Positions 35,741 to 48,944 of a stretch of 55,545 nucleotides of DNA are shown here, one piece after another. Where the stretch lies: contig CAWCNA010000006.1 of assembly GCA_963796795.1 (NCBI GenBank), forward strand, positions 1-55,545, in the 5' to 3' direction. The notes beneath the pieces are model-generated. The model worked only from the letters and a program-made list of their open reading frames with translations. It had not been told where the DNA came from and did not search any database. The first letter of the stretch is position 1; every line of letters starts with the position of its first letter. Origin of the DNA: Candidatus Adlerbacteria bacterium. GTDB taxonomy: Bacteria; Patescibacteriota; Minisyncoccia; Phycocordibacterales; SBAW01. The position numbers and the translations under genes are program-made.

Positions 35741-37817
35741 ATGGCTGGAGGTTTTACACTCAAATCCGAATACAAACCGGCAGGCGACCAGCCCAAGGCT
35801 ATAGAGAGTTTGATGAAAGGCTTGAAAGATAGCAAACGAGACCAGACACTGCTTGGTGTTACTGGCTCGGGTAAGACATTTACGATTGCGAACGTTATTG
35901 AAAAAGTGGGGAAGCCCACGCTTGTTATTGCGCACAACAAAACACTTGCGGCTCAGTTGGCGCAGGAGTATCGCGAATTTTTTCCTAACAACTCAGTGCA
36001 GTATTTTGTTTCTTATTACGACTACTACCAGCCCGAAGCATACATTCCACACTCGCGACACATATATAGAGAAAGAAGCACAAATAAACGAAGAAATCGA
36101 CAGGTTGCGCCACGCGTCTACTCAAGCGCTACTTTCGCGCAGTGATGTAATTATTGTGGCGTCGGTGTCCTGCATCTACGCGCTTGGCTCACCTGAGGAG
36201 TATCGCAAAGTACATTTGGAACTCGCACCGGGGTTGAAGAAGAATCGTTCGGAACTTGTGCGCGAACTTATTTCTATATATTTCGAACGCACAACGGCAG
36301 ACCTGACACCAGGTAAATTTCGTGCACTGGGAAATAGTGTTGAAATTATGCCAACAGGCGAGCGTGTGCTCTATCGTGTCGAATTTTCCGCCTCCGGCGG
36401 AGAGAGTGTCATTAGCAAAGTTCGTGTCATAGATGCAATATCGCGCGCTGAACGTGAATCATTAAAATCATTATTCTTATTTCCTGCCAAACACTACGTC
36501 ACGCCCGAGGACTGAACGTGGCCGCGCAATTGAAGATATTAAATTTGAATTAAAAGAGCGTTAAGTGCGTTGAACGCGCGGGCAAGATGCTTGAGGCAGA
36601 GCGTTTGAAGCGCCGCACCAACCACGACATGGCGACTGATCCGCGAGATAGGCGTATGCAAGGTATTGAAAATTATTCGCGCCATTTCGACGGCCGAAAA
36701 CCCGGCCAAGCCGCCATTTACCTTGCTCGACTATTTCCCGCATAAGGCCGACGGCACGCCAGACTTTCTTAACCGTAATAGATGAAAGCCATGTCACTGT
36801 TCCGCAAATTGGCGGCTATGTACGCCGGCGACAGGGCGCGCAAAGAAAATTTGGTTGATTTCGGCTTCCGACTGCCTTCAGCAGTAGACAACCGCCCCTT
36901 GCAGTTTGAGGAATTTGAAAAGCGAGTGGGACAGACCATTTACACTACTGCAACGCCGGGCCCATACGAAAAAGAGCATTCTGGCAAAGATGGTGGAGCA
37001 AATCATTCGCCCGACCGGCCTCGTCGACCCAGAAATTATAATGCGTCCCGTAACTGTGAACAGAAGGAACGCTTGGCCAAGTGCAGGATTTTTTGGACGA
37101 AGCCGAAAAAGTTATCAAACATGGAGGCCGTGTGATGGTAACAACGCTCACCAAAAAAATGGCCGAAGATCTTGTCCGAGTATTTAAAAGAGCGAAAATT
37201 TAAAGCCGCGTACTATCCACAGCGAAGTTCAAACATTCGATCGTATTACAATGCTGACCGACTTCCGCAAAGGTGTGTACGATGTGCTTGTGGGTGTTAA
37301 CCTTACTCCGCGAAGGCCTCGACTTGCCGGAGGTAGAGCTAGTGGCAATTCTGGACGCCGACAAAGAGGGTTTCTTGCGCTCTGAAACGTCACTTATACA
37401 AACAATTGGCCGCGCCGCACGTAACGTCGAGGGCCGCGTCATAATCTATGCCGACAATATGACAACTCTTTAGAAAAGGCGATAGGCGAGACCAACCGCC
37501 GCCGCGCAGTGCAGCTTGCGTACAATAAAAAACACGGCATTACGCCAATGAGCATCAAAAAAGCGATCACAGACATCACCGAGCAGCTCCGCAGCGAGCA
37601 TGGCAAAGCTATTGGCACCTGCTTGATATAGACAGAGAGCTTATACAAACAGAATCCGCGCCGCTTTATTGCCGAAAAAAAGAGGGAAATGGCCGAAGCA
37701 GTCAAAGAGCTTGATTTCGAAACTGCCGCAATCCTTCGCGACGAAATCTTGCCGCGCTTTCTAGGAGAAAGCAGCCGTAAGAAGAAAACACTTCACTATG
37801 TTTATGCAGGTACATAA
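35741..37817 (+). CDS. uvrB: Excinuclease ABC subunit B; multiple frameshifts, 3' end approximate
   Basis: [60 protein letters not shown] across several frames. Confidence 0.92.
36387..36401. repeat. 15-bp palindrome inside uvrB
   Basis: TCCGCC-TCC-GGCGGA (encodes SASGG); same arms as 43368-43382. Confidence 0.65.
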
Positions 37818-37871: not shown

Positions 37872-40456
37872 ATGGAAGATAAAATCACAATAAAAGGAGC
37901 AAAAACTCACAATCTCAAGAATATTTCGCTCAGTATTCCGCGCAATAAGATGGTTGTGTTTACTGGGCTTTCCGGAGCGGGAAGTCGTCTTTGGCATTCG
38001 ATACTATTTTTGCCGAAGGCCAGCGCCGCTATATTGAATCACTCTCCGCATACGCGCGCCAGTTTTTGCGCCAGATGCAAAAGCCCGATGTCGAAGAGAT
38101 CACCGGCCTTAGCCCGCAATTTCTATCGACCAAAAATCGCGCTCCAACAACCCGCGCTCAACCGTGGCAACGATTACTGAAATTTATGACTACATGCGCA
38201 TTTTGTTTGCGCGCGTAGGCAAGCCGCACTGCCTTGTCTGCGGCCGCGAAATTAAAAAACATTCCAACGAGGAGATAATCCACAGTATTGTTGAAGGCGT
38301 TACAAAAACTGCACCTAAAAAAACTCGCAAGGTGATGGGCGTCGATATCAACGAAGATACGGTCAAGATTTTTGCGCCGGTCGTTGTGGGCCGCAAAGGG
38401 GAGTACTACCAGCTGTTGTACGATATGCTCGGCAAGGGATATGAGCGTGCAAAAGTGGATGGCCAGTTAAAAAGCCTTCGCGAGCAGATTATTTTGGCAA
38501 AACACAAAAAGCACGATATCTCGATTTTGGTCGATGAAATTTTAGTGGCCGAATTTACCCGCTGCAAAAGCCGCAGCACTTGAGCGCCTTGTCGAAGCGG
38601 TTGGAGCGCGCACTTGAAGAAGCCGATGGGCTGGTTGAGATAGAGGATGCAAACGGCACGCGTCTCGTTTCGGCAAAGTTTATGTGCCCCTACGATGGCT
38701 TTTCATTCCCCGAGGTCGAACCTCGCCTTTTCTCGTTTAACTCGCCGTACGGTGCGTGCCCGGCCTGCAACGGCTTGGGCACAAAGCATTTTTTTAGCGA
38801 TGAGCCGTGCCCTGTCTGCCATGGCGCACGCCTGCGCCCCGAAGCCTTGAATGTATGGCTCGGAGAGAAAACAAATATTGTTGATCTCACCAAATCTTTC
38901 TATTTCAAGGCGCATACGATTTTTTTATCGAGCTTGAGTTAAGCAAAAAAGATCAGGAAATTTCCAAAACAGTCATTAAAGAAATTTCTGCGCGGCTTGA
39001 AGTTTATGCTCGATGTGGGCTTCGATTACCTGACGCTCGAGCGTCGCGCCAACACGCTTTCAGGCGGCGAGGCACAGCGTATCCGCCTGGCCTCGCAGCT
39101 TGGCTCGGGCCTCGTGGGTGCGCTATACGTACTCGATGAGCCGACCATTGGTCTGCATCAGCGCGACAACGAACGCCTTATTAAAACGCTTGTTGAACTT
39201 GCGTGATTTGGGCAACACGATAATTGTTGTTGAGCACGACGAAGACACTATTTATGCGGGTGACTATTTGGTGGACATCGGCCCGGGTGCTGGCGTCCAT
39301 GGCGGCAATATCGTTGTTGCGGATGAATTGGAAAAACTGCTTACTGCAAAAAAAAATGACAGCGGCTCAGTCACGCTTGCATACTTGCGTGGCGAAAAGG
39401 AAATTCCTGTGCCCGAAGAGCGCCGCGAAAAAGACAAGGGCAAGATAGAAATAAAAGGCGGCAAGGCATTTAACATCAAAAATCTTTCAGCTGAAATCCC
39501 GCTTGGGAAAATGGTTTCCATCACCGGCGTTTCGGGTTCGGGCAAATCAACATTCTTGTATGAAATTTTATACGAAAATTTGCGTGCACGTTTCGACAAG
39601 CGATATCGCACCAACAAACTATTTAACGTGCATCATTTGAAGGCACTGAACATTTGTCGCGTGCAATTTTAATCGACCAAAGCGCCGATCGGCCGCACGC
39701 CACGTTCGAACCCTGCAACGTACACAGGCTCATTTACCTTTATTCGTGATCTGTTTGCCGTCAACATCGAGAAGCTCGCGCACGCGGATGGAAGGCAACC
39801 GCTTTTCGTTTAACGTACAAACGGCAAAGGGCGGCGGGCGCTGCGAAGCGTGCGAAGGCAACGGCACTATAGCTGTGGAAATGCACTTCTTGCCGACGGT
39901 ATATGTGACATGTGATGTCTGCAATGGAAAGCGTTTTATGAAAGAAACGCTTGAGGTTAAATATAAAAAGAAGAGCATCTACGATGTGCTTGAAATGACG
40001 GTTGAAGAAGCACTCGATTTCTTTAACGATATACCTGCAATTTATGATCGCCTCAAAACTTTGGGCGAAGTGGGGCTCAACTATTTAAAGCTTGGCCAGA
40101 GCGCAACAACCCTTTCGGGTGGTGAAGCGCAGCGAGTAAAAATCTCTGCCGAGCTCTATCGTCCGCATCTGCAAAAAACTATGTACTTGCTGGATGAGCC
40201 AACTGTCGGGCTGCACTACGAAGACGTGCAGAAACTTATCGATATTTTGAACCGCTTGGTACAGGCAGGGAACTCAGTTGTCTTGATCGAGCACAATATG
40301 GATATTATTAAATCATCCGACTATCTTTTGGACTTCGGCCCCGAAGGCGGTGTTGGCGGTGGGAACTTGGTCGCAAAGGGCACGCCTGAAGATGTCGCTA
40401 ACAACAAAAACTCCCACACCGGCAAATACTTGAAGCGCGTGCTCAAAGGGCGATAA
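37872..40456 (+). CDS. uvrA: Excinuclease ABC subunit A; multiple frameshifts
   Basis: [52 protein letters not shown], second Zn finger, LDEPTVGLH. Confidence 0.93.
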
Positions 40457-43084: not shown

Positions 43085-43303
43085 ATGGAAAAGAAATACA
43101 GCGAAGGCGAATTTCAAGAACTGGTATTGGACCAATTTAAATCGGTACATACAGAGTTAAAGATAATAAAGACTGATATTGGTGAAATGAAGGACGTGCT
43201 TTATCCGCTTGCGAAGGCCTTTGATATAGACTCCGAAAAACTTATAGACCACAACAAACGGATAGTTCGTGTTGAAAAACACTTAGGGTTTAAAAGCGCA
43301 TAA
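43085..43303 (+). CDS. Small coiled-coil hypothetical protein
   Basis: 72 aa ORF with TG-N-TATACT 6 nt upstream; HNKRIVRVE tail. Confidence 0.65.
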   Translation: MEKKYSEGEFQELVLDQFKSVHTELKIIKTDIGEMKDVLYPLAKAFDIDSEKLIDHNKRIVRVEKHLGFKSA

Positions 43304-43344
43304 AGTCTAGCCTTTCTCTTTTAGATATCGTATTATGGTCTCGC

Positions 43345-43406
43345 GGGCCCTTTCAGCCAGAGGCTGATCCGCCTTTGGCGGAAGCTCATAAAATTTGGTA
43401 GAGCGC
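43345..43406 (+). repeat. Duplicated 5' fragment (nt 1-27) of tRNA-Ala interrupted by two tandem 15-bp palindromes
   Basis: GGGCCCTT[TCAGCCAGAGGCTGA TCCGCCTTTGGCGGA]AGCTCAT[AAAAT]TTGGTAGAGCGC versus tRNA GGGCCCTTAGCTCATTTGGTAGAGCGC. Confidence 0.85.
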
Positions 43407-43407
43407 G

Positions 43408-43659
43408 ATGCACTACGTATACGTACTCAAAAGCGAACGTAACGATAAAAGATACGTTGGCTACACAGGAAAGACCCCAGAGGTTCGTCTAATCGAACAC
43501 AACCGAGGTTCGAGTTCTTACACAAGCAGAAATATTCCTTTTAAACTTCTGTATAGTGAAAGTTTTGAAAACAAAACTGAAGCATTGCAAAAAGAGAAGT
43601 TTTTAAAGTCTGGTCAGGGAAGGAAGTTTCTTGATACAATCATAAACGAGGGCCCTTAG
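43408..43659 (+). CDS. Stand-alone GIY-YIG endonuclease (83 aa)
   Basis: YVYVL...YVGYT...RL.EHN.G...YT....P..L.Y.E......A..KE..LKSG.GR. Confidence 0.9.
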   Translation: MHYVYVLKSERNDKRYVGYTGKTPEVRLIEHNRGSSSYTSRNIPFKLLYSESFENKTEALQKEKFLKSGQGRKFLDTIINEGP

Positions 43660-43725
43660 CTCATTTGGTAGAGCGCCTCATTTGCAATGAGGAGGCGACC
43701 GGTTCGATCCCGGTAGGGTCCACCA
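43650..43725 (+). tRNA. tRNA-Ala(UGC)
   Basis: GGGCCCT/AGGGTCC acceptor with G3:U70, anticodon loop TT-TGC-AA, GGTTCGATCCC, CCA. Confidence 0.96.
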
Positions 43726-43734
43726 AGCGCAAAC

Positions 43735-43758
43735 AATCTCCCCGACGGGAGATTTTTG
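43735..43758 (+). terminator. Terminator after tRNA-Ala
   Basis: AATCTCCC-CGAC-GGGAGATT-TTT. Confidence 0.7.
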
Positions 43759-43779
43759 CTTTGGTGGAAGGCACAGCGA

Positions 43780-47380: not shown

Positions 47381-48944
47381 ATGAACAACTTCATCGAACA
47401 ATTTAAAAAAGAAATAGAAAACTTCCAGCCAACGGCACGCTCGGCAAATTCGGGCGTGGTTATCCGTGTCGGCGACGGCGTGGCGGAGGTGGAGGGGCTG
47501 CCGAACGCGGTGATGTCGGAAATGGTCCGTTTTAATACTGCTGGTAAAAAATCTCTCGAAAAGGCAATTGAGGCGCCTGAAGTGTACGGCCTCGTGCTTA
47601 ACCTCGAGGAAGAGTCGGTTCGCGTCATTATTTTAGGTGATGCCAACCTTATCTCTGAAGGAATGAGTGTCGAATCAACAGGTGCAGTACTTTCTATCCC
47701 TGTTGGCGATGAACTTCTCGGCCGTGTTGTCTCGCCGCTTGGCGAAGCTGTTGACGGATTAGGTGAAATAAAAACTGCGCAGCGCAACTCTATCGAGCGC
47801 GAGGCATATGGCGTGATGGACCGCCAGAGCGTTAACCAGCCATTACACACCGGTATCAAGGCCATCGACTCAATGATCCCGATAGGTCGCGGACAGCGCG
47901 AGCTTATCATCGGCGACCGCTACACCGGTAAAACAACTGTTGCTATCGATACAATTTTGAATCAGAAAGTCCGAGGCAAAAGAAACTCGCCCGATCTGTA
48001 TCTACGTTTCTATCGGCCAAAAAGAATCTAAGACCGCGCGCTTGGTACAGATGTTGCGCGAGCGCGGCGCACTCGAATACACCATTGTTGTTGACGCAGG
48101 TGCGTCGGCACCGGCAGCGCTCCAGTACTTGGCACCATTTGCGGGCGCTGCTATTGGCGAGTACTTCATGGACAAAGGTCAGGATGCACTGATTATCTAT
48201 GATGACCTTTCAAAACACGCCGTTGCATACCGTGAACTTTCACTCTTGCTCCGCCGCCCACCGGGCCGCGAGGCATATCCAGGCGACGTCTTCTACCTGC
48301 ACTCACGTTTGCTCGAGCGCGCAGCAAAACTCTCAAAAGAAAAAGGTGGCGGTTCATTGACCGCACTTCCAATTATCGAAACGCAGGAAGGCGACGTTTC
48401 TGGATACATCCCAACAAACGTTATTTCTATTACTGACGGCCAGATCTTCCTCGAAACTGAATTGTTCAACAAGGGTATGCGACCAGCTATCAACGCAGGC
48501 ATTTCCGTGTCGCGCGTCGGTTCATCCGCACAGACAAAGGCAATGAAGAAGGTGTCGGGCCGCATCAAGCTTGAGCTTGCACAGTTCCGCGAACTTGAGG
48601 CCTTTATGCAATTTTCGCAGGACTTGGATGCTGACACCAAGCGCCGCATCGATGCCGGCCAGCGCATGATGGCGATTTTGCGTCAGAAGAACAGCGCCCC
48701 GATACCGTTCGAGCGCCAGGCAGTTATCATCTATGTCGCGGTCAATGGTTATCTTGGTAAAACTCCGGTTGGCCGTGTACCAGAATTTGAAGAGAAATTT
48801 TTCTCATTCCTTGATTCGAATGCAAAGAACTTGCTTCCAAGCATCGAGAAGGCGCGTGAGATTACTGCAGAACACGAAGAACAATTGAAGACAGCTTTTT
48901 CGAAGTTTGAAGAATCGCACAAAGATCTCTTCACGGCTGAGTAG
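47381..48944 (+). CDS. atpA: ATP synthase subunit alpha; frameshift near 47970
   Basis: [44 protein letters not shown]. Confidence 0.95.

What the first reader, a model, noticed from the sequence alone, without database searches (positions are those of the whole stretch)
43345..43725. Cassette of palindrome-disrupted tRNA 5' fragment, GIY-YIG nuclease and intact tRNA-Ala
Seen: tRNA-Ala nt 1-27 are duplicated at 43345-43406, with two tandem 15-bp palindromes (TCAGCC-AGA-GGCTGA, TCCGCC-TTT-GGCGGA) inserted at position 8/9. The 83-aa GIY-YIG ORF starts 1 nt after the fragment and takes its TAG stop from nt 8-10 of the intact tRNA. Its 3' end contains TG-A-TACAAT (43632-43640), 9 nt before the tRNA, which could be a replacement promoter. 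No integrase or transposase is present. Inference: a ~305-bp minimal selfish element that targets tRNA 5' ends, with a nuclease that may also generate or spread the palindromes found inside genes. Small GIY-YIG enzymes such as Slx1 cut branched DNA.
Basis: partly seen in the sequence, partly recalled or inferred. Interest (0 to 1): 0.8.

Follow-up and report, generated by a model that had tools for sequence, protein, structure and literature searches.

The report
Mini-nuclease cassette riding tRNA genes
A tiny nuclease gene, preceded by a copied tRNA start that is split by a 30-base double hairpin, sits in front of an intact tRNA gene, and the same design recurs at many tRNA genes in ultra-small bacteria, which points to an undescribed kind of selfish DNA.

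Summary
An intact tRNA-Ala(TGC) lies at 43650-43725. An 83-aa GIY-YIG ORF (43408-43659) takes its TAG stop from tRNA nt 8-10. At 43345-43406 lies a copy of tRNA nt 1-27, split after nt 8 by two 15-nt hairpins.

It is not a one-off. I found 75 related ORFs that abut the 5' end of a tRNA gene (33 of 97 in relatives, 42 of 80 in public MAGs). Of these, 55 carry a copy of that tRNA's 5' end just before the ATG, and in 50 a GC-rich hairpin insert follows it directly.

The 30-nt double hairpin element (DHE) matched 34 times in 120 kb of GIY-YIG loci and 0 times in 246 kb of control loci.

The seven closest relatives have the same tRNA-Ala without the cassette. An independent peat contig carries a 92%-identical copy whose likeness starts exactly at fragment nt 1.

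Best reading: a mobile, free-standing, SLX1/UPF0213-like mini GIY-YIG cassette that invades tRNA genes and restores them with a replacement 5' part. The cleavage site, the hairpin's role and whether the nuclease spreads the hairpins are untested.

I rate it a new variant of a known kind. My literature searches found no description of it.

The parts
43331..43344 (+). Native tRNA-Ala promoter flank (TATTAT at 43331-43336, then 8 nt), now in front of the fragment
   Evidence: It aligns with the flank directly upstream of the intact, cassette-free tRNA-Ala of relatives. Its function as a promoter is inferred.
43345..43352 (+). Copy of tRNA-Ala nt 1-8 (GGGCCCTT), the left part of the displaced 5' fragment
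   Evidence: The likeness of the independent peat contig starts exactly here.
43353..43382 (+). 30-nt double hairpin element (DHE): TCAGCC-AGA-GGCTGA followed by TCCGCC-TTT-GGCGGA
   Evidence: folded as DNA, two 6-bp stems. The same module sits 35-70 nt before the ATG in 21 related loci. There are 0 differences in it in the 92% variant.
43383..43406 (+). Copy of tRNA-Ala nt 9-27 with a 5-nt insert (TAAAA, about 43389-43393); the spacer before the ORF
   Evidence: It is the most diverged segment in the peat variant: 6 differences in the 25 nt of 43383-43407.
43408..43659 (+). 83-aa GIY-YIG mini-nuclease ORF; its stop TAG is tRNA nt 8-10
   Evidence: Pfam E 1.3e-15. Y5, Y16, G18, R27, H31 and K67 are invariant and E63 nearly so in 27 cassette ORFs. 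AlphaFold2 model pLDDT 94. Best fold and sequence matches are UPF0213 and SLX1.
43632..43640 (+). TGATACAAT, a candidate internal extended -10 box 9 nt before the tRNA
   Evidence: One search lists TGGTCA-18-TACAAT with TG. The scan found 2 sites where shuffles give 1.2 on average, so it is not significant. It is unchanged in the peat variant but is not a general feature of cassettes (5 of 55).
43650..43725 (+). Intact tRNA-Ala(TGC), the only tRNA-Ala in the assembly
   Evidence: ARAGORN. Rfam RF00005, 65.8 bits.
43735..43764 (+). Terminator-like hairpin plus T-run that closes the unit

Best explanation
The locus holds a mobile, free-standing mini GIY-YIG endonuclease cassette that has invaded the single tRNA-Ala(TGC) gene of a Candidatus Adlerbacteria-like genome (Patescibacteria/CPR).

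In order, the locus reads: native tRNA promoter; old tRNA nt 1-8; 30-nt double hairpin; degenerate tRNA nt 9-27 as a spacer; 83-aa nuclease ORF; complete tRNA; terminator.

The mobile unit is best described as [double hairpin - spacer - ORF - replacement tRNA nt 1-8] lying between nt 8 and 9 of the original gene. The tRNA is therefore rebuilt downstream, and the old 5' end is left behind as a split relic.

Shown:
- the anatomy;
- its recurrence at many tRNA species and in many genomes;
- empty orthologous sites;
- conserved catalytic residues and purifying selection on the ORF.

Inferred:
- ORF and tRNA are co-transcribed from the native promoter, and RNase P releases the tRNA.
- The nuclease cuts cassette-free tRNA genes in or next to loops of the D-arm or T-arm.
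- The break is repaired by synthesis-dependent strand annealing on a cassette-bearing copy. Only tRNA sequence is shared between copies, so likeness ends at tRNA nt 1.
- The hairpin sits at the cut site of the left-behind copy, where it breaks the target and the direct repeat.
For: Family-wide architecture:
- 33 of 97 GIY-YIG ORFs in 61 related genomes abut a same-strand tRNA that starts 44 nt before to 65 nt after the end of the ORF's stop codon. So do 42 of 80 in public MAGs.
- 55 of these 75 carry a copy of that tRNA's 5' end before the ATG. In 50 a folding insert of 12 nt or more follows it directly.
- A GC-rich stem of 6 bp or more lies in -100..-1 in 54 of 75 cassettes. It lies in 9 of 73 control stretches and in 3 of 75 ORF interiors.

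Gain and loss:
- tRNA-Ala(TGC) follows the pterin-4a dehydratase gene in 25 of 30 loci of the genus. 21 of these lack any GIY-YIG ORF, and 3 carry an upstream cassette from two different ORF lineages.
- All 7 closest relatives (Ddl 80-85% identical) have the tRNA-Ala with no GIY-YIG ORF in the fetched stretch.
- The flank of the fragment is orthologous to the flank of an empty tRNA-Ala.

Horizontal spread:
- The ORF is 57-66% identical to ORFs in other Patescibacteria classes but at most 49% identical within its own genus.
- L122 and L133 carry the same design after nt 8 of tRNA-Ala.
- A peat contig matches 43345-43679 at 92% identity, with unlike sequence before 43345.

Selection:
- Catalytic residues are invariant.
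- 12 of 18 changed codons in the peat variant are synonymous.

Re-invasion or unequal exchange:
- A tandem cassette is seen in L125, and fragment-hairpin remnants lie between ORF and tRNA in L137, L142 and L185.

Precedent:
- T4 SegB is a free-standing GIY-YIG homing endonuclease set between tRNA genes (PMC2988022, passages read).
Against: - No cleavage or homing has been observed.
- The protein is only a catalytic domain with no DNA-binding domain, so sequence-specific homing in the classical sense is doubtful.
- The rebuilt tRNA restores any target that lies wholly inside the tRNA. Self-immunity is therefore unexplained unless the native flank or a DNA structure is part of the target.
- The hairpin position differs among close relatives at the same tRNA: after nt 8 in L122 and L133 but after nt 17 in L126. 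This fits secondary or repeated hairpin insertion better than one fixed cut site.
- In most loci the fragment before the hairpin is identical to the resident tRNA. Repair from a foreign donor does not by itself predict this.
- 20 of 75 abutting cassettes showed no fragment under the strict test.
- No public run held most of this exact locus.
Confidence: 0.55

Rival explanations
1. Hairpin-centred system. The 30-nt double hairpin is the primary mobile element, and the mini GIY-YIG protein is its structure-specific nuclease, comparable to REP sequences and their RAYT transposase. The nuclease cuts at loops or junctions of hairpin-prone DNA (tRNA genes, rRNA helices, the hairpins themselves). Hairpins are pasted in at TT|purine sites. 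tRNA fragments are what remains where a hit on an essential tRNA was rescued by duplication. This overlaps with the best explanation but makes the hairpin, not the ORF, the unit of spread.
For: - The DHE core pattern gives 34 hits in 120 kb of GIY-YIG loci (28 of 80 loci). 21 of them lie 35-70 nt before the ATG, including in loci without an abutting tRNA. There are 0 hits in 154 kb plus 92 kb of control loci.
- Solo DHEs lie in frame in the trigger factor, PheT and DnaG genes of this genome.
- The pattern occurs in 11 of 61 related genomes, up to 18 per genome. All 11 have a GIY-YIG hit, and the reversed-pattern control gives 0.
- Insertion points are mostly in the D-, T- or anticodon loops of the tRNA fragment and follow T.
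- The hairpin position shifts among close relatives.
- The best structural relatives include SLX1, which cuts branched DNA.
Against: - Many genomes with 3-6 GIY-YIG genes have no DHE of this type, and G008 has 18 DHEs with only a truncated neighbouring ORF.
- Other GIY-YIG contexts show no enrichment of hairpins (2 of 33).
- In DnaG the element replaces an equally long loop instead of adding length, which a simple paste-in does not predict.
- No transposition chemistry is known for GIY-YIG enzymes (my own knowledge).
Confidence: 0.22
2. The hairpin is only a regulatory RNA feature. Because the ORF is read from a strong tRNA promoter, a stable 5' stem-loop in the leader damps or times translation, or stabilises or marks the transcript for processing. 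This is as described for hairpin-regulated homing endonucleases of T4-like phages. On this reading the hairpin has no role at the DNA level.
For: - The T4 review states that RNA hairpins control I-TevI, I-TevII, I-TevIII, segB and mobE, and that a very stable hairpin lies just upstream of the RBS of seg43(25) (PMC2988022, passages).
- Hairpins are enriched only in tRNA-abutting cassettes (54 of 75, against 2 of 33 in other contexts).
- The leader folds more stably than shuffles do (z -2.1).
- Stems covary between loci (TCAGCC/GGCTGA, TCCGCC/GGCGGA, CCAGCC/GGCTGG).
Against: - In the predicted fold the hairpins do not sequester the start codon.
- The same 30-nt module occurs as solo copies inside protein genes and in other organisms' contigs, so it moves as DNA.
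- Several inserts are perfect palindromes to the centre with no loop (the 20-nt palindrome of L013, L065, L069, L086 and L090). An RNA hairpin does not need this.
Confidence: 0.15
3. A domesticated, host-beneficial operon. The small GIY-YIG protein serves the cell, for example in repair at heavily transcribed tRNA genes, and is inherited vertically. The fragment would then be an old duplication without meaning.
For: - A separate clade of about 30 weaker GIY-YIG homologues is a conserved neighbour of tRNA-Gln. It includes this genome's second copy (G000 C5:26095-26367) and looks vertically inherited.
- Catalytic residues are conserved.
Against: - The cassette clade is patchy, with 0 to 7 copies per genome.
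- It sits at many different tRNAs, and orthologous sites of the closest relatives are empty.
- ORF relationships cut across host taxonomy.
Confidence: 0.05
4. An assembly artefact, a chance repeat, or the remnant of an integrase-type island at a tRNA gene.
For: - The MAG has apparent frameshifts in atpA and a uvrA-like gene, so it contains some errors.
- No run held most of the exact stretch.
Against: - The same architecture occurs in dozens of independent assemblies and in an independent peat contig.
- The repeats are at most 19 nt long, too short to mislead an assembler.
- No integrase was found in the ORFs scanned between 39.1 and 48.9 kb.
- The duplicated part is the 5' end of the tRNA, not the 3' end.
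Confidence: 0.02

Closest known systems
Free-standing GIY-YIG homing endonucleases of T4-like phages (Seg family, especially SegB in the tRNA gene cluster)
   Same: A GIY-YIG catalytic fold, no intron, placement between or next to tRNA genes, presumed spread by double-strand-break repair with co-conversion, and hairpins near the start of the gene (PMC2988022, passages; PMC13096335, start of abstract in a search listing only).
   Different: - By my recollection, Seg proteins are some 200 aa or more and carry a DNA-binding domain. Here there are about 80 aa of catalytic domain only, closest to UPF0213 and SLX1.
- With Seg genes no piece of the target is duplicated and there is no double hairpin.
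- Seg genes are in phages. This cassette is on a cellular chromosome, and the viral collection gave only 2 weak partial hits.
Mobile endonuclease ORFs of fungal mitochondria that bring a replacement piece of the host gene ('gene hybrids' in Glomus; Allomyces atp6)
   Same: An endonuclease ORF lands in an essential gene and carries a substitute part, so the gene stays whole and the displaced part decays beside it. Hairpin elements occur in the same genomes. PMC3787672 (passages) speaks of homing endonuclease genes giving rise to mitochondrial gene hybrids. The Allomyces case is recalled, not read.
   Different: There the 3' (C-terminal) part of a protein gene is replaced, in mitochondria, by larger enzymes. 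Here the 5' part of a bacterial tRNA gene is replaced, and the hairpin sits inside the displaced piece.
Double-hairpin elements and GC clusters of fungal mitochondria; Rickettsia palindromic elements; REP sequences with RAYT
   Same: Short GC-rich self-complementary repeats that appear to be mobile, are sometimes tandem hairpins, and sometimes lie in coding or RNA genes. For DHEs see PMC10085805 (passages) and PMC2800124 (passages). The Rickettsia and REP/RAYT cases are recalled.
   Different: - The element here is only 30 nt and is itself a near-palindrome of two 15-nt hairpins.
- Its hosts are Patescibacteria and some other phyla (as the record titles name them).
- It is physically tied to a GIY-YIG gene.
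- Sequence relatedness to the mitochondrial elements was not tested.
Integrase-type genomic islands and prophages at tRNA genes
   Same: A tRNA gene is the target, and the element rebuilds it from a partial copy that it carries.
   Different: Those use a tyrosine integrase, target the 3' end and are kilobases long (my own knowledge). Here no integrase was found, the 5' end is duplicated and the unit is about 305 nt.
GIY-YIG ORFs in insertion sequences of CPR rRNA genes (PMC11270868)
   Same: The same protein family in the same bacterial group. I also saw two such ORFs inside the 5' region of 16S rRNA genes (L010, L028).
   Different: That paper has 0 occurrences of 'tRNA' or 'palindrom'. It judged its GIY-YIG ORFs to be sparse and outside spread by homing.
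UPF0213 (BH0048, EF2693) and SLX1
   Same: The best sequence and fold matches: 1zg2 at E 2.4e-15, and SLX1 at rmsd 2.2-2.8 A over 72 residues.
   Different: The UPF0213 entries are titled 'hypothetical' or give only the protein's name, so no function is stated in the rows I saw. SLX1 chains are 304-324 aa; that the extra part is a zinc-finger/RING domain and that SLX1 needs SLX4 is my recollection. Neither a further domain nor a partner is seen here.

Membership tests
GIY-YIG nuclease superfamily | Match to the family profile with the GIY and YIG tyrosines, the conserved Arg and the catalytic Glu | tested here: met
   Pfam PF01541 at E 1.3e-15, 57.9 bits against a cut-off of 22.6. Y5, Y16, G18, R27, H31 and K67 are invariant and E63 nearly so in 27 cassette ORFs. 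The assignment of these residues to catalytic roles is from my knowledge of the family.
GIY-YIG nuclease superfamily | The family's alpha/beta fold | tested here: met
   AlphaFold2 model with pLDDT 94.2, order of elements strand-strand-helix-helix-strand-helix-helix. Foldseek's top 10 chains are UPF0213, SLX1 and At-HIGLE; I-TevI is at rank 14. All E-values are weak (1e-3 or above) because the domain is short.
Homing endonuclease gene (functional class) | Presence/absence polymorphism at a conserved target site | tested here: met
   21 empty, 3 upstream-filled and 1 downstream-filled among 25 tRNA-Ala(TGC) loci of the genus. The 7 closest relatives have the tRNA-Ala without the cassette.
Homing endonuclease gene (functional class) | Site-specific cleavage of the empty allele, and immunity of the occupied allele | not testable with these tools
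   This needs enzyme assays. The hairpin breaks the left-behind copy, but the rebuilt tRNA restores any target that lies inside the tRNA.
Homing endonuclease gene (functional class) | A DNA-binding module that gives a long recognition site | tested here: not met
   83 aa, of which Pfam covers residues 1-68. No further domain was found.
SLX1-type structure-specific nuclease | GIY-YIG domain plus a C-terminal zinc-finger/RING domain, with SLX4 as partner | tested here: not met
   Only the GIY-YIG part aligns (query 2-68 to SLX1 14-88). The protein ends at residue 83.
Integrase-type tRNA-targeting island | A tyrosine or serine recombinase gene, and duplication of the tRNA 3' end | tested here: not met
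   No recombinase in the ORFs scanned between 39.1 and 48.9 kb. The duplicated part is nt 1-27.
Double-hairpin / palindromic mobile repeats | Two adjacent GC-rich stem-loops, repeated at several unrelated places, with presence/absence between genomes | tested here: met
   Two 6-bp stems. 4 copies in this genome, and presence in 11 of 61 relatives with up to 18 copies. Homology to the mitochondrial elements was not tested.
Functional tRNA gene (downstream copy) | A complete cloverleaf that scores above the family threshold | tested here: met
   ARAGORN. Rfam RF00005 at 65.8 bits against a gathering score of 29. The fragment gives no Rfam match.

The most novel reading that the evidence does not exclude
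The 80-aa GIY-YIG proteins are structure-specific nucleases that cut hairpin loops or junctions in DNA that can fold on itself (tRNA genes, rRNA helices). They thereby mobilise a 30-nt double hairpin element. Together the two form a nuclease-plus-miniature-repeat system of Patescibacteria and some other phyla. Such a system would write itself into tRNA genes, which are rescued by a carried 5' copy, and would write in-frame 10-residue patches into essential proteins such as DnaG, PheT and trigger factor. It would be a GIY-YIG counterpart of REP/RAYT, and the smallest autonomous mobile unit known in bacteria (about 305 nt).
Probability: 0.25. Interest if true: 0.88.

Novelty: new variant of a known kind. 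Interest (0 to 1): 0.75.

Why it matters
- It would be a very small (about 305 nt) self-contained mobile unit that lives inside single-copy essential tRNA genes without harming them, in bacteria with tiny genomes that are thought to carry few mobile elements.
- It gives a concrete candidate function for the widespread but uncharacterised UPF0213/'GIY-YIG nuclease family' mini-proteins.
- It links them to a short palindromic repeat that also rewrites loops of essential proteins.
- It offers a bacterial parallel to the endonuclease-plus-hairpin elements of fungal mitochondria.
- In practice, such cassettes create tRNA pseudo-fragments and contig breaks that can mislead the annotation and binning of CPR genomes.
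- The nuclease could be a compact structure-specific or tRNA-gene-specific enzyme.

Tried and rejected
- **Homodimer prediction**: no verdict (scores 0.00 and 0.00; controls not run). It says nothing either way.
I then used the single ORF.
- **NCBIfam**: no family for the ORF, for the second GIY-YIG copy or for the 72-aa upstream ORF.
- **Public runs**: no run held half or more of the sampled words of the stretch. Shares were 0.04-0.14, and the four runs I laid covered mainly the tRNA or the hairpin alone. Apart from one peat contig, the reads tell nothing about this locus, its expression or its habitat.
- **Viral contigs**: 2 weak partial hits, so no sign of a phage vector.
- **Fixed hairpin orientation**: I first argued that the double hairpin has a fixed orientation relative to the ORF. 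I withdrew this because the element is itself a near-palindrome and reads alike on both strands.
- **The TAAAA insert as an ORF promoter**: I considered that the insert creates a promoter (TAAAAT). I dropped this because two of those bases differ in the 92% variant.
- **Pre- versus post-hairpin identity**: 365 of 405 against 335 of 416 positions. The aligner misplaced many hairpins, so I use it only as a weak hint.
- **Two strict automatic hairpin detectors**: they found 35 and 37 of 75. The more tolerant test is the count I rely on.
- **Literature**: 7 searches. None listed a description of GIY-YIG ORFs with split tRNA 5' fragments. One search was spoiled by an ambiguous term.
Full report
**1. 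The observation**

The window is contig C6 of a 610-kb, 15-contig assembly that is 66% complete. Its closest named relatives by D-Ala-D-Ala ligase (80-85% identity) are Candidatus Adlerbacteria MAGs of the Patescibacteria.

ARAGORN and Rfam find an intact tRNA-Ala(TGC) at 43650-43725. It is the only tRNA-Ala in the assembly. The ORF 43408-43659 encodes 83 aa and matches Pfam GIY-YIG (E 1.3e-15). Its TAG stop is tRNA nt 8-10.

The stretch 43345-43406 reads as follows:
- tRNA nt 1-8;
- two 15-nt hairpins, TCAGCC-AGA-GGCTGA and TCCGCC-TTT-GGCGGA;

The match is beyond chance: z = 6.0, and 0 of 200 shuffles reach it. Only 2 of 31 tRNAs of the genome have any 8-nt 5' word repeated within 500 nt upstream. 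One is this locus and the other is a bare 8-mer.

A terminator-like hairpin follows the tRNA. The neighbours are housekeeping genes: a uvrC-like gene, ddl, pterin-4a dehydratase and the ATP synthase genes. No recombinase was found.

**2. It is a family-wide design**

A search of 61 related genomes found GIY-YIG relatives in 44, with 0-7 matches each. I fetched 93 loci covering all hits but one (G030:C31). A profile built from these ORFs located 97 of them.

- 33 of 97 have a same-strand tRNA that starts 44 nt before to 60 nt after the end of the ORF's stop codon.
- In a second, independent set, the 80 best public-MAG relatives of the window's ORF, 42 of 80 do (gaps -24 to +65).
- The tRNAs include Ala, Asn, Gln, Glu, Ile, Leu, Met, Phe, Pro, Ser, Thr, Tyr and Val.

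Of the 75 abutting cassettes:
- 55 have a copy of the first bases of that same tRNA (at least 7 nt, at least 90% identical, starting at nt 1-3) within 170 nt before the ATG.
- In 50 of these, an insert of at least 12 nt that folds with -6 kcal/mol or better follows it directly.
- By eye, about ten more have diverged fragments with hairpins.
- A perfect GC-rich stem of at least 6 bp lies in the 100 nt before the ATG in 54 of 75. It lies in 9 of 73 stretches 200 nt further up and in 3 of 75 ORF interiors.

Other GIY-YIG contexts are not enriched: 2 of 33, and 4 of 29 for a separate clade.

That separate clade of about 30 weaker homologues is a conserved neighbour of tRNA-Gln. It includes this genome's second copy (C5:26095-26367). 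I take it to be an ordinary vertically inherited gene.

**3. The double hairpin**

In the clade that holds the window's ORF, the insert is nearly always the same 30-nt module. Its two 15-nt hairpins have conserved, covarying stems (TCCGCC/GGCGGA, TCAGCC/GGCTGA, CCAGCC/GGCTGG) and free 3-nt loops. The two halves are near reverse complements, so the whole is a near-palindrome.

A core pattern gives 34 hits in 120,332 bp of the 80 GIY-YIG loci (28 loci). 21 of them lie 35-70 nt before the ATG, including in nine loci without an abutting tRNA. There are 0 hits in 153,670 bp of ddl loci and 0 in 92,461 bp of pterin-dehydratase loci.

Among 61 related genomes the pattern occurs in 11 (own genome 4, G008 18). 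A reversed-pattern control gives 0 everywhere.

In this genome three solo copies lie in frame in the trigger factor, PheT and DnaG genes and read S/P-A-x-G-G-P/S-A-S-G-W/G-E. In DnaG the element takes the place of an equally long variable loop of the relatives.

Other cassette clades carry other palindromes. One is a 20-nt perfect palindrome shared by Leu-CAA, Leu-GAG and Ser-GCT cassettes whose ORFs are distant from each other. A near variant occurs as solo copies in this genome.

**4. Evidence for gain, loss and transfer**

- The pterin-4a dehydratase gene is followed by tRNA-Ala(TGC) in 25 of 30 loci of the genus. 21 have no GIY-YIG ORF. 3 have an upstream cassette (own, L045, L050). 1 has an ORF of another clade after the tRNA.
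- The other two upstream cassettes belong to a different ORF lineage and have their hairpin after nt 21, not nt 8. The same tRNA was therefore invaded independently.
- Among 18 ddl loci, 12 hold tRNA-Ala(TGC) and none has an upstream cassette. These include all 7 closest relatives.
- The flank upstream of the fragment aligns with the flank upstream of the intact tRNA of an empty relative. This includes a homologous 72-aa ORF. The fragment therefore marks the original position of the gene.
- The window's ORF is 57-66% identical to ORFs titled as Moraniibacteriota, Jorgensenbacteria, Nomurabacteria and others, but at most 49% identical to any ORF in its own genus. Some record titles of third-party assemblies may be unreliable.
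- L122 and L133 have the same double hairpin after nt 8 of tRNA-Ala.
- A contig of a peat DNA run matches 43345-43679 without gaps at 92% identity, and it is unlike the window before 43345.

The 27 differences of the peat contig fall as follows:

| Segment | Differences |
|---|---|
| nt 1-8 plus the hairpin (38 nt) | 0 |
| spacer 43383-43407 (25 nt) | 6 |
| ORF before the tRNA start | 21 |
| tRNA (first 30 nt) | 0 |

12 of 18 changed codons are synonymous, and 6 of 83 residues differ.

Tandem cassettes (L125) and fragment-hairpin remnants between ORF and tRNA (L137, L142, L185) also occur. So do hairpin-split pseudo-tRNA pieces after intact tRNAs (L138, L131, L127).

**5. The protein**

In 27 cassette ORFs Y5, Y16, G18, R27, H31 and K67 are invariant, and E63 nearly so. 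The AlphaFold2 model has pLDDT 94.

Sequence and fold searches of the PDB rank UPF0213 proteins (1zg2, 1ywl) first. SLX1 follows (rmsd 2.2-2.8 A over 72 residues), and I-TevI ranks lower. There is no second domain.

**6. How it most likely works**

Shown: the anatomy, its recurrence, the empty sites and selection on the ORF.

Inferred:
- The native promoter drives one transcript, leader-ORF-tRNA, from which RNase P frees the tRNA. A -10-like box precedes the fragment in 15 of 55 cassettes, the intact tRNA in only 5 of 55, and a control place in 1 of 55. The window's internal TGATACAAT is thus at best a local extra.
- I propose that the nuclease breaks cassette-free tRNA genes in the D- or T-arm region.
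- The right-hand end then primes synthesis on a cassette-bearing copy through the tRNA, ORF, spacer and hairpin.
- The new strand anneals to the left end through the short tRNA nt 1..x. This would explain why likeness between copies ends at tRNA nt 1 and why the recipient keeps its own promoter.
- The hairpin would break the target, and the direct repeat, in the left-behind copy.

Weak points:
- There is no DNA-binding domain.
- The rebuilt tRNA restores the target.
- The hairpin position varies (8, 12 or 17) among close relatives.

These weak points leave room for the hairpin-centred rival, in which the protein is a structure-specific nuclease that mobilises the hairpins. They also leave room for a purely regulatory role of the hairpin, for which T4 endonuclease genes are a precedent (PMC2988022, passages).

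**7. Comparison with what is known, and novelty**

The closest known systems are:
- T4 SegB and other free-standing GIY-YIG homing genes;
- endonuclease ORFs of fungal mitochondria that carry a replacement gene piece (PMC3787672, passages);
- mitochondrial double-hairpin elements (PMC10085805 and PMC2800124, passages);
- integrase-type islands at tRNA genes;
- GIY-YIG ORFs in CPR rRNA insertions (PMC11270868, passages; it never mentions tRNA).

None of them combines an 80-aa catalytic-domain-only nuclease, a duplicated tRNA 5' part and a conserved 30-nt double hairpin.

Seven full-text searches listed no description of this.

I file it as a new variant of a known kind, a homing-type endonuclease cassette. 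There is a one-in-four chance that it is a new nuclease-plus-miniature-repeat system.

Noticed in passing
L246:934-963 (G000 C14:25132-25161); L247:781-810 (C13:1420-1449); L248:25-54 (C2:22171-22200): 30-nt double hairpins lie in frame inside the DnaG, PheT and trigger factor genes of this genome, always reading S/P-A-x-G-G-P/S-A-S-G-W/G-E. In DnaG the element replaces an equally long variable loop seen in 11 relatives, instead of adding length.
   Followed up: partly
window 36387-36401: A single 15-nt hairpin of the same family (TCCGCC-TCC-GGCGGA) lies in frame in a 220-aa ORF and reads S-A-S-G-G.
   Followed up: no
L002:1495-1767 (G000 C5:26095-26367): A second GIY-YIG gene (90 aa) lies divergent from tRNA-Gln(CTG), 75 nt away. 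It belongs to a clade of about 30 weaker homologues that neighbour tRNA-Gln in several other genomes too (upstream or divergent tRNA-Gln in eight of them). It is probably an ordinary vertically inherited UPF0213-like gene, with no fragment or hairpin.
   Followed up: partly
L010:1371-1961 and L028 (16S rRNA 5' region): ORFs of the same family sit inside the 5' region of 16S rRNA genes, flanked by the two strands of an rRNA helix. This is the known CPR rRNA insertion type.
   Followed up: no
L005:56-446 and L016: ORFs of another clade lie directly upstream of protein gene starts (one murG-like). A 28-nt direct repeat flanks the ORF, and the upstream copy is followed by its own inverted copy, which makes an AT-rich palindrome.
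   Followed up: no
L125:571-1302; L137, L142, L185; L138, L131, L127: Complex arrays: two complete cassettes in tandem before one tRNA-Val; fragment-hairpin remnants between ORF and tRNA, one with a hairpin nested in a hairpin; and hairpin-split pseudo-tRNA pieces just after intact tRNAs.
   Followed up: partly
window 48011-48045 and 39660-39750: The ATP synthase alpha gene and a uvrA-like ABC gene are each split into two ORFs by apparent single-base frameshifts, one beside an A-run. These may be assembly errors or real breaks. No palindrome is involved.
   Followed up: partly
G000 C2:32790-33688 (outside the window): Three copies of a 20-nt palindrome (CCCGCCTGCCGGCGGGCAGG) lie within 900 nt near a contig end. 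The same palindrome splits the tRNA-Leu fragments of L006 and L015.
   Followed up: no
G000 C8:26298-26381 (outside the window): ARAGORN calls an 84-nt tRNA with a four-base anticodon (caga). By eye it resembles a tRNA-Leu type with an odd anticodon loop.
   Followed up: no
window 43085-43303: A 72-aa ORF without any family match lies between the pterin dehydratase gene and the cassette. It is conserved in the empty relative G022 with a 21-nt length difference, so it belongs to the host, not to the cassette.
   Followed up: partly
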